From the NCBI GenBank assembly GCA_038842485.1, contig JAWBSP010000017.1, forward strand, positions 1-26,658: a stretch of 26,658 bases of DNA, read 5' to 3'. The stretch is from Candidatus Hadarchaeales archaeon. Lineage in GTDB: Archaea > Hadarchaeota > Hadarchaeia > Hadarchaeales > JAWBSP01. A model generated the notes under the pieces. It did no database searches. It saw nothing but the letters and a program-made list of their open reading frames with translations, and had not been told where the DNA came from. The translations under genes and the position numbers were made by a program. Positions 2,697 through 2,791 of the stretch are shown here, one piece after another (the first letter of the stretch is position 1; each line of letters opens with the position of its first letter).

Positions 2697-2791
2697 GGCG
2701 ACGGGCATGGACCTGGCGGGATTCGAACCCGCAACCGTCCAGCTGGCTAGCTGGCCGCTCTACCGTTGAGCTACAGGCCCAGCCCGTCGCC
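2697..2791. repeat. 10-bp perfect inverted repeat bracketing the tRNA (GGCGACGGGC 2697-2706 / GCCCGTCGCC 2782-2791)
   Basis: Read directly from the sequence. Confidence 0.9.
2708..2780 (-). tRNA. Atypical tRNA with Ala identity (G3:U70, A73) and an 8-nt anticodon loop CUAGCCAG; CCA not encoded
   Basis: GGGCCTG TA GCTC AACGGTA GAGC G GCCAG CTAGCCAG CTGGA CGGTT GCGGG TTCGAAT CCCGC CAGGTCC A; acceptor, D and T arms intact. Confidence 0.85.

What the first reader, a model, noticed from the sequence alone, without database searches (positions are those of the whole stretch)
2708..2780. Ala-identity tRNA with an 8-nt anticodon loop: possible natural quadruplet or missense decoder
Seen: perfect acceptor, D and T arms, G3:U70 and A73, a strong TATA box, and a loop C32 U33 [AGCC] A37 G38 with a G27:A43 mismatch. 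Known: AlaRS recognises G3:U70 and ignores the anticodon; 8-nt loops cause +1 frameshift or four-base decoding (e.g. sufD); archaea normally do not use A34 tRNAs. Inference: it could be alanylated and read GGCU quadruplets, misread Gly GGC codons, or serve a non-ribosomal role. The same loop sequence appears in the inverted copy at 2646-2658, which argues against a sequencing error.
Basis: partly seen in the sequence, partly recalled or inferred. Interest (0 to 1): 0.8.

Follow-up and report, generated by a model that had tools for sequence, protein, structure and literature searches.

The report
Odd, dispensable alanine tRNA look-alike
A hot-spring archaeon carries a fourth, extra alanine-type tRNA gene with a malformed anticodon loop and a tight flanking helix; close strains have lost most of it, so it is most likely a decaying or non-decoding copy, not a new way of reading the genetic code.

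Summary
On the minus strand at 2780-2708 lies a 73-nt tRNA (Rfam 56.5 bits). It has intact acceptor, D and T arms, G3:U70, A73, a G27:A43 mismatch and an 8-nt loop. Logan contigs of two runs and a JGI metagenome contig carry the same letters, so it is not an assembly error.

The decoder reading is poorly supported.
- The genome already has tRNA-Ala GGC, CGC and UGC.
- The gene was found in 1 of 66 genomes of the phylum, and not in the two congeners.
- Contigs of three hot-spring DNA runs carry an allele that lacks 60 nt (positions 26-73 plus the trailer helix strand).
- A diverged variant has different loop letters.
- Folding closes the loop into a 4-nt loop.
- GGCU is not enriched at candidate +1 frameshift sites.

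New features:
- A perfect 10-bp leader/trailer helix clamps the acceptor stem. It is unique among the genome's 40 tRNA calls and keeps pairing in a diverged variant.
- A15 replaces the otherwise constant G15.
- An inverted, D-arm-less copy of the 5' half (2636-2658) changes together with the anticodon arm.

Best reading (0.45): a young, dispensable, non-decoding tRNA-Ala paralogue in a hairpin-prone spacer. Main rival (0.3): a functional helix-clamped tRNA-like RNA.

The parts
2708..2780 (-). 73-nt tRNA-Ala-like body: G3:U70, A73, A15:U48, intact acceptor, D and T arms, no encoded CCA
   Evidence: Rfam 56.5 bits; ARAGORN tRNA-???; sequence; A15 against G15 in 37 of the other 39 calls, the other 2 being mis-registered
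2743..2750 (-). 8-nt 'anticodon' loop CUAGCCAG. Its outer two pairs are predicted to close, leaving an AGCC 4-nt loop
2782..2791 (-). 5' (leader) strand of a perfect 10-bp helix, one U away from tRNA position 1
   Evidence: Unique among 40 tRNA calls; the best of the others is 8 pairs, counting G:U and offsets
2697..2706 (-). 3' (trailer) strand of the 10-bp helix, one U after A73
   Evidence: pairing kept in a diverged variant
2794..2797 (-). Outer 4-bp extension of the clamp (GGGA), predicted to pair with UCCU at 2692-2695
   Evidence: fold
2692..2695 (-). Partner strand of the outer 4-bp extension
   Evidence: fold
2846..2853 (-). TATA box TTTATAAA, centre of the palindrome CCTTTATAAAGG, 65 nt upstream of the tRNA. 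It implies a leader of about 40 nt
   Evidence: no differences listed there in any contig that covers it
2660..2664 (-). Run of five U in the RNA sense, a possible archaeal terminator 43 nt after the tRNA. Not kept in variant B
2636..2658 (+). Inverted partial copy of the tRNA 5' half: positions 1-9, one A, then the 13 nt of the anticodon arm. The D arm is missing
   Evidence: it changes together with the anticodon arm in variant B
2607..2634 (-). Strong hairpin (12 pairs) next to the inverted copy. It looks like a terminator on either strand
2697..2756 (-). The 60 nt missing in the deletion allele: tRNA positions 26-73, one U and the trailer helix strand
   Evidence: tables 5, 5c, 7 and 8: X7 record 21, an X1 joint contig at depth 16.2, X4 record 19

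Best explanation
This is a young, lineage-restricted extra copy of a tRNA-Ala gene that no longer has a working anticodon loop. In effect it is a dispensable, non-decoding tRNA-like relic.

It lies in a 650-nt non-coding spacer that differs between species, between a DUF92 gene and a GH1 gene.

Inferred: it can still be transcribed from its own TATA box with a leader of about 40 nt. The precursor folds into a cloverleaf whose acceptor stem is clamped by a helix of 10 plus 4 bp between leader and trailer. RNase P RNA and AlaRS are present, so a 73-nt RNA might be released and even charged with alanine. However, the anticodon arm folds into a rod of 6-7 pairs with a 4-nt loop, so it should not read codons.

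Inferred: the helix, the inverted D-arm-less copy and the near-palindromic anticodon arm are products of hairpin-driven mutation. In this process, template switching between inverted repeats keeps the two arms matched. The same instability would have produced the 60-nt deletion allele.
For: Redundant: tRNA-Ala GGC, CGC and UGC are all present.

Restricted:
- blastn of 2600-2860 against 40 relatives hit only ordinary Ala tRNAs with 7-nt loops.
- A pattern with up to 3 mismatches over 65 genomes of the order found no homologue.
- The covariance model of tRNA plus helix scores 123.7 bits on itself. The next best is 61.5 bits, an ordinary tRNA. That gives 1 of 66 genomes of the phylum.
- At the syntenic site, G001 has an LPG_synthase_TM gene and G002 has none of this.

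Dispensable: a 60-nt deletion allele appears in 3 of 3 DNA runs laid.
- It is the only form in X7, on flanks with no substitution against the window.
- It stands at 16.2x against 33.4x for the full form in X1.
- It sits on a diverged background in X4.

No conserved anticodon: variant B (X11 record 11) differs at loop positions 3, 5 and 8, and 8 substitutions plus 1 indel fall within the 17 nt 2734-2750.

Loop closure is predicted.

Unlike the working tRNAs of this genome:
- A15 instead of G15.
- The TATA box is 65 nt away instead of about 27.
- The leader is G+C-rich and paired.

GGCU is not enriched at candidate +1 sites: 25 of 1373, rank 68 of 242.

No mobile-element or tRNA-using partner genes lie nearby.
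Against: - All four arms remain paired. A15:U48 is a compensated Levitt pair, and 6:67 is compensated relative to the paralogues. Random decay would not be expected to preserve this.
- The 10-bp helix is far beyond chance.
- In variant C (X1 records 3 and 5) the helix keeps all 10 pairs, through two double compensatory changes and two G:C-to-G:U changes. The G:U pairs work only in the tRNA-sense RNA. This hints at selection on an RNA structure. My rough estimate of p is about 0.03. That the two contigs come from one molecule is inferred from their similar depth, 8.19 and 7.49.
- The TATA box shows no listed difference in any contig that covers it.
- The locus exists in at least three diverged haplotypes across several studies.
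- No expression data could be obtained either way.
Confidence: 0.45

Rival explanations
1. It is a functional, non-decoding tRNA-like RNA. The conserved module would be the acceptor/T-arm minihelix plus the leader/trailer clamp. It could serve as an RNase P/RNase Z processing or stability signal, as mascRNA does at the 3' end of MALAT1. It could also be an alanine-accepting RNA with a use outside the ribosome. The downstream antisense copy would offer an alternative fold in read-through transcripts.
For: - The helix is unique among 40 tRNA calls. It is kept by compensatory and G:U changes in variant C.
- T arm, acceptor 3' strand and trailer helix strand (2696-2733) are identical in variant B, while the anticodon arm is scrambled.
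- No TATA difference is listed in any contig that covers it.
- RNase P RNA is present at 226 bits and AlaRS is present.
- The predicted 95-nt fold is 10 bp, a 1-nt bulge, 8 bp and then the cloverleaf, at -59.2 kcal/mol.
- In MALAT1, an extended mascRNA acceptor stem with a single bulged base is required for efficient RNase P maturation (PMC8457004, abstract).
- In the read-through transcript the alternative fold with the antisense copy is about as stable as the cloverleaf: -103.4 against -101.9 kcal/mol.
Against: - It is absent from 65 of 66 genomes of the phylum and deleted in co-occurring strains.
- No partner was found: no LPG_synthase_C, FemAB or Ro/TROVE in an 88.9% complete genome.
- Rfam mascRNA (21 bits) and Y RNA (26.4 and 16 bits) scores are far below their thresholds.
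- In bacteria, leader pairing that extends the acceptor stem hinders RNase P (PMC9433436, start of abstract in a search listing).
- The covariation rests on 30-letter contig ends.
Confidence: 0.3
2. It is a working decoder charged with alanine. It would read GGCU as a quadruplet (+1 frameshift), GGC as alanine (missense), or GCU through an AGC triplet within an enlarged loop.
For: - The Ala identity set is present on an intact cloverleaf.
- It has its own TATA box.
- 8-nt loops can work: yeast mitochondrial tRNA-Thr(UAG) has one and reads triplets (PMC7609411, passages).
- That sufD-type suppressors read four bases is recalled, not checked here.
Against: - The loop letters differ in variant B, and no single reading frame of the loop gives alanine codons in both.
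- The loop is predicted to close.
- GGCU is not enriched at candidate +1 junctions (a crude scan).
- It is dispensable and restricted to one of 66 genomes.
- The clamp helix and the long leader are unlike the genome's working tRNAs.
- Under the AGC reading position 37 would be C. A purine is usual there (recalled).
Confidence: 0.08
3. It is a scar of a mobile element that once integrated into a tRNA-Ala gene. The polymorphic 60 nt (anticodon arm to 3' end plus trailer) would match the part of a tRNA that archaeal integrases usually use as their attachment core. The inverted fragment would be left over from a later inversion.
For: - The indel spans tRNA positions 26-73 plus 11 nt downstream. 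This resembles typical att cores; that resemblance is recalled, not tested.
- The spacer is variable between congeners.
Against: - No integrase, transposase or viral gene lies among the window's ORFs that were scanned.
- The repeat is inverted, comes from the 5' half and lacks the D arm. It is not a direct repeat of the 3' part.
- The pattern found nothing in viral contigs.
- The three normal Ala tRNA genes are intact elsewhere.
Confidence: 0.1
4. It is an assembly or sequencing artefact of this MAG.
For: The T arm is a high-copy repeat in metagenome graphs: depth exceeds 2600 at 2705-2731 in X1 and exceeds 3100 in X7. Contigs break there.
Against: Two Logan contigs from different studies span 2661-2786 and 2300-2765 with 0 other letters. 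An independent metagenome contig is identical.
Confidence: 0.02

Closest known systems
tRNA pseudogenes and supernumerary tRNA-like paralogues
   Same: It is an extra copy beside a full set of isoacceptors. Its anticodon loop is aberrant. It is restricted to one lineage and is polymorphic in the population.
   Different: The arms and tertiary pairs are still fully compensated. It carries a perfect 10-bp leader/trailer clamp and has a co-varying inverted partial copy nearby.
Frameshift-suppressor tRNAs with 8-nt anticodon loops (sufD, SufB2); yeast mitochondrial tRNA-Thr(UAG)
   Same: It formally has an 8-nt loop on a 5-bp stem.
   Different: No conserved quadruplet across variants. Loop closure is predicted. 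No enrichment of target sites. It is not needed by sister strains. The yeast example reads triplets (PMC7609411).
mascRNA at the MALAT1 3' end (tRNA-like processing signal)
   Same: It is a tRNA-like fold whose acceptor stem is extended by leader/trailer pairing with a single bulged base. RNase P is available.
   Different: The organism is an archaeon and the element has its own TATA box. The Rfam mascRNA score is 21 bits against a threshold of 42.5. No upstream RNA is shown to depend on it.
Bacterial Y RNAs (YrlA, Deinococcus Y RNA)
   Same: It is a tRNA-like module joined to a long helix formed by the two ends of the RNA.
   Different: In Y RNAs the long stem takes the place of the anticodon stem (recalled); here it extends the acceptor stem. 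Scores are 26.4 and 16 bits against thresholds of 80 and 69. No Ro/TROVE gene was found.
Allo-tRNAs and mitochondrial tRNAs that carry G3:U70 with non-Ala anticodons
   Same: Alanine identity is combined with an anticodon region that does not spell a normal alanine anticodon.
   Different: Those have open 7-nt loops and defined anticodons (PMC7609411). This one does not.

Membership tests
Canonical archaeal elongator tRNA-Ala | Cloverleaf with 7-bp acceptor, D and T arms and conserved T-loop and D-loop bases | tested here: met
   Rfam tRNA 56.5 bits; the other two tRNAs in the window score 56.3 and 58.8; cloverleaf MFE
Canonical archaeal elongator tRNA-Ala | G3:U70 and A73 | tested here: met
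   Read from the sequence
Canonical archaeal elongator tRNA-Ala | 7-nt anticodon loop with U33 and an NGC anticodon | tested here: not met
   8-nt loop CUAGCCAG with a G27:A43 mismatch; ARAGORN gives no isotype
Canonical archaeal elongator tRNA-Ala | G15, as in the genome's other tRNAs | tested here: not met
   A15 here; G15 in 37 of the other 39 calls, the other 2 being mis-registered
Canonical archaeal elongator tRNA-Ala | Conserved in related genomes | tested here: not met
   Found in 1 of 66 genomes of the phylum
Canonical archaeal elongator tRNA-Ala | Charged by AlaRS and used on the ribosome | not testable with these tools
   AlaRS gene present; no assay possible
+1 frameshift / quadruplet-decoding tRNA | Open 8-nt anticodon loop | tested here: inconclusive
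   8 nt on paper; closing pairs predicted at probability 0.98 and 0.85 at 37 C and 0.75 and 0.66 at 75 C; modifications unknown
+1 frameshift / quadruplet-decoding tRNA | Genes that need the matching quadruplet (GGCU) | tested here: not met
   25 of 1373 sites, rank 68 of 242 quadruplets; crude ORF-based scan
+1 frameshift / quadruplet-decoding tRNA | Anticodon conserved among homologues | tested here: not met
   Variant B differs at 3 of 8 loop positions
Y RNA / YrlA | Match to the Rfam models and presence of a Ro (TROVE) protein | tested here: not met
   26.4 and 16 bits against gathering scores of 80 and 69; no TROVE hit in an 88.9% complete genome
mascRNA-like tRNA-like processing element | tRNA-like fold with a leader/trailer-extended acceptor stem, cut by RNase P | tested here: inconclusive
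   Structure predicted and RNase P RNA present; cleavage not testable; Rfam mascRNA 21 bits against 42.5
BHB-flanked, split or permuted archaeal tRNA | Two 3-nt bulges separated by a 4-bp helix at the junction | tested here: not met
   The junction is a single bulged U between 10 bp and 8 bp
tRNA-gene att site of an integrated element | Direct repeat of the tRNA 3' part and an integrase nearby | tested here: not met
   The repeat is inverted and comes from the 5' half; the neighbours scanned that match a Pfam family are housekeeping genes

The most novel reading that the evidence does not exclude
This would be a previously undescribed class of archaeal tRNA-derived RNA. Its body has alanine identity and its ends are locked by a selected leader/trailer helix. 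Its fast-changing anticodon arm co-evolves with an antisense copy 85 nt downstream. Together these would form a switch between a tRNA fold and a long hairpin, or a self-matched guide and target pair. A weaker version is a natural alanine-charged quadruplet or missense decoder that is polymorphic in wild populations.
Probability: 0.12. Interest if true: 0.7.

Novelty: new member of a known kind. Interest (0 to 1): 0.3.

Why it matters
If it were a natural quadruplet or missense decoder, it would be a rare wild example of code flexibility in archaea. The evidence argues against that, which saves effort on charging and reporter assays.

What remains useful is a clean natural case of a tRNA gene copy caught between function and loss. 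Full and truncated alleles coexist in hot-spring populations, and inverted repeats around a tRNA appear to evolve in concert.

The clamp helix with compensatory changes is the one feature that could still point to a real tRNA-like RNA. It deserves a look in RNA data.

Tried and rejected
- No RNA holder was listed among the runs. X11 is labelled metatranscriptomic but flagged as probably DNA, and it held only a diverged variant. Nothing can be said on expression.
- X11 has no cover at 2543-2650. No conclusion is drawn from that.
- The exact 21-letter pattern in genome contigs gave one unrelated truncated bacterial tRNA fragment. In viral contigs it gave nothing.
- The metagenome scan returned only the same strain.
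- Y RNA reading: weak Rfam hits and no Ro gene. Rejected.
- Alanyl-lipid or cell-wall use: no LPG_synthase_C and no FemAB. The LPG_synthase_TM genes lack the tRNA-using domain. Not supported.
- The 99-aa ORF at 2346-2645 and the 149-aa ORF at 2684-3133 have no Pfam match, and I read ORF99's Arg/Pro/Gly-rich translation as non-coding.
- No remnant of the G001 LPG_synthase_TM gene lies in the spacer (tblastn).
- An inversion between the inverted repeats would not restore a normal tRNA (worked out by hand).
- RNase_P_p30 was not found, but RNase P RNA is present.
- tRNAscan-SE isotype models were not available.
- Supplementary files of papers were not consulted.

Full report
**What is there**

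The window is a whole 26.7-kb contig (C17) of a 943-kb archaeal MAG. The MAG has 27 contigs and is 88.9% complete. It carries an archaeal 16S-tRNA-Ala(UGC)-23S operon. Runs that hold the stretch are hot-spring metagenomes.

On the minus strand at 2780-2708 lies a 73-nt tRNA.
- Rfam's tRNA model scores 56.5 bits. That is in the range of the window's other two tRNAs, 58.8 and 56.3 bits.
- ARAGORN finds it but cannot name an isotype.
- Read directly, it has the acceptor stem GGGCCUG/CAGGUCC with G3:U70, and A73.
- D arm, T arm and T loop are perfect.
- The anticodon arm is GCCAG-CUAGCCAG-CUGGA.

**It is not an error**
- Two Logan contigs from different studies span the region with no differing letter: X1 record 2 (2661-2786) and X4 record 17 (2300-2765).
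- A JGI metagenome contig (L030) is identical across it.

1. A leader/trailer clamp.
   - The ten bases just outside the tRNA, one U away on each side, are perfectly complementary (2782-2791 with 2697-2706).
   - Among the genome's 40 ARAGORN tRNA calls this is unique. The next best leader/trailer pairing is 8 pairs, even when G:U pairs and offsets are allowed.
   - Ordinary Ala tRNAs of relatives have at most 5.
   - ViennaRNA folds the 95-nt unit as 10 bp, a single bulged U, an 8-bp acceptor (U-1 pairs with A73) and then the cloverleaf. Four more pairs lie outside.
2. The loop is predicted to close.
   - C32:G38 and U33:A37 pair with probability 0.98 and 0.85 at 37 C, and 0.75 and 0.66 at 75 C.
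   - This leaves a rod with a 4-nt loop AGCC.
3. Position 15 is A. It is G in 37 of the other 39 calls; the remaining two are mis-registered. Position 48 is U where the three Ala tRNAs have C, so the 15:48 Levitt pair is compensated.
4. The promoter differs from the other tRNA genes.
   - Most of them have A/T-rich boxes at about -27 and -12 to -3, which implies almost no leader.
   - This gene has TTTATAAA 65 nt upstream, which implies a leader of about 40 nt.
5. The inverted copy is longer than reported.
   - 2636-2658 (+) mirrors tRNA positions 1-9, then one A, then the 13 nt of the anticodon arm. The D arm is missing.
   - The 13-mer occurs nowhere else in the genome.
   - No other tRNA call has more than 10 nt of inverted match within 300 nt.

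**Is it needed?**

The genome has normal tRNA-Ala GGC, CGC and UGC, so this gene is a fourth copy.

It was not found in relatives.
- blastn of 2600-2860 against 40 relatives matched only the tRNA body, and only ordinary Ala tRNAs with 7-nt loops.
- A 21-letter pattern with up to 3 mismatches found no homologue in the 65 genomes of the order.
- A covariance model of tRNA plus helix scores 123.7 bits on itself. The next best score, 61.5 bits, is an ordinary tRNA.
- Class and phylum add one more genome, so the gene is in 1 of 66.

The site itself is variable.
- In one congener the gap between the GH1 and DUF92 genes holds an LPG_synthase_TM gene.
- In the other congener DUF92 abuts GH1 fragments at a contig end.
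- The window's 650-nt spacer (2333-2982) holds no ORF with a Pfam match.
- Among the neighbouring ORFs scanned, all that match a Pfam family are housekeeping genes, with no integrase or transposase.

**Population data (contigs, not reads)**

A form in which 2697-2756 is missing appears in all three DNA runs laid. The missing stretch is tRNA positions 26-73, one U and the trailer helix strand.
- In X7 it is the only form. A single 940-nt contig carries it, on flanks that differ from the window only by two single-base indels.
- In X1 it stands at 16.2x beside the full form at 33.4x.
- In X4 it sits on a diverged background.

The tRNA is therefore dispensable in nature.

Two diverged full-length variants also exist.

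Variant B (X11 record 11):
- It has no listed difference across 2696-2733 (trailer helix strand, acceptor 3' strand, T arm).
- It has 8 substitutions and one indel within the 17 nt of the anticodon arm. These include loop positions 3, 5 and 8.
- Its own inverted copy, seen in the loose end before 2665, carries the matching letters at those positions.
- No single reading frame of the loop gives alanine codons in both variants.

Variant C (X1 records 3 and 5; that both come from one molecule is inferred from their depths of 8.19 and 7.49):
- It changes six helix positions yet keeps all ten pairs.
- Two pairs change on both sides (A:U to G:C and C:G to U:A).
- Two G:C pairs become G:U, which pair only in the tRNA-sense RNA.
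- My rough estimate of the chance probability is about 0.03.
- These inferences rest on difference tables and 30-letter ends. The full variant sequences could not be fetched.

**The decoder hypothesis**

A crude genome scan looked for places where an ORF of at least 100 codons ends and the +1 frame continues for at least 100 codons. It found GGCU at 25 of 1373 in-frame sites, rank 68 of 242 quadruplets. That is no enrichment.

Combined with the unconserved loop, the predicted closure, the dispensability and the restricted distribution, I put a decoding role at about 0.08.

8-nt loops can function: yeast mitochondrial tRNA-Thr(UAG) reads triplets (PMC7609411, passages seen). The decoding role is therefore unlikely, not impossible.

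**Other readings tested**
- Y RNA: weak Rfam hits of 26.4 and 16 bits, far below threshold, and no Ro gene. Rejected.
- Alanyl-lipid or cell-wall use: no LPG_synthase_C or FemAB.
- BHB or split tRNA: the junction has a single bulge, not two 3-nt bulges.
- Integration scar: the indel resembles an att core (recalled). However, the repeat is inverted and comes from the 5' half, no integrase is near, and viral contigs hold nothing.

**Verdict**

Most likely (0.45) this is a young, dispensable, non-decoding copy of a tRNA-Ala gene in a hairpin-prone spacer. Under this reading, its palindromic parts are kept matched by template switching between inverted repeats. Those parts are the clamp helix, the near-palindromic anticodon arm and the inverted D-arm-less copy. 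The same instability produced the deletion allele. This origin is inferred, not shown.

The main rival (0.3) is a functional clamped tRNA-like RNA.
- The compensated helix, the TATA box with no listed difference and the conserved acceptor/T-arm half speak for it.
- RNase P RNA (226 bits) and AlaRS are available.
- An extended acceptor stem with a single bulged base is what mascRNA needs for RNase P maturation of MALAT1 (PMC8457004, abstract).
- In bacteria, however, leader pairing that extends the acceptor stem hinders RNase P (PMC9433436, start of abstract in a listing).
- Expression is unknown. No RNA holder was listed.

Noticed in passing
window 5329-7953 (+): One 874-aa ORF carries aldehyde ferredoxin oxidoreductase N and C domains followed by an OMP-decarboxylase domain. 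It is either a fusion or two genes joined by my ORF call.
   Followed up: no
G000 C1:59369-59522 and C4:54252-54405: Two tRNA gene pairs abut with no spacer at all: Glu-CUC with Arg-CCU, and Lys-UUU with Asp-GUC. One cut must serve as the 3' end of one tRNA and the 5' end of the next.
   Followed up: no
upstream of most tRNA genes of G000: An A/T-rich box resembling AAGTTTTTGA lies at -12 to -3, and a second A/T box at about -27. This implies nearly leaderless tRNA transcripts, although RNase P RNA is present.
   Followed up: partly
G002:C25:11680-11882 (L026, L027): Short GH1 fragments with stop codons lie right after the DUF92 gene at a contig end, while a full GH1 gene lies on another contig. 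This is either a pseudogene remnant or an assembly join.
   Followed up: no
L025 3071-4054 (G001) and window 14932-15951: In G001 the syntenic gap holds an LPG_synthase_TM gene. G000 has a paralogue at about 31% identity 12 kb away. No synthase C domain was found in G000.
   Followed up: partly
window 13773-14851 (-): Two adjacent ORFs of 177 and 182 aa each carry an MgtE domain. This is a tandem pair or a split transporter.
   Followed up: no
L037 about 1440-1520 (G023:C37): A tRNA 5' part (acceptor and D arm) is followed by non-tRNA sequence, and ARAGORN makes no call. It is probably an intron-containing or split tRNA gene.
   Followed up: no
window 2844-2855: The TATA box sits in a perfect 12-nt palindrome, CCTTTATAAAGG, so it could in principle fire in either direction.
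   Followed up: no
G000 C6:27680-28038, C20:11232-12063 and others: With introns allowed, ARAGORN reports about 11 extra 'tRNAs' with introns of hundreds to thousands of nt. Most are probably spurious, but Trp (51 nt) and Asn (42 nt) look like real intron-bearing genes.
   Followed up: no
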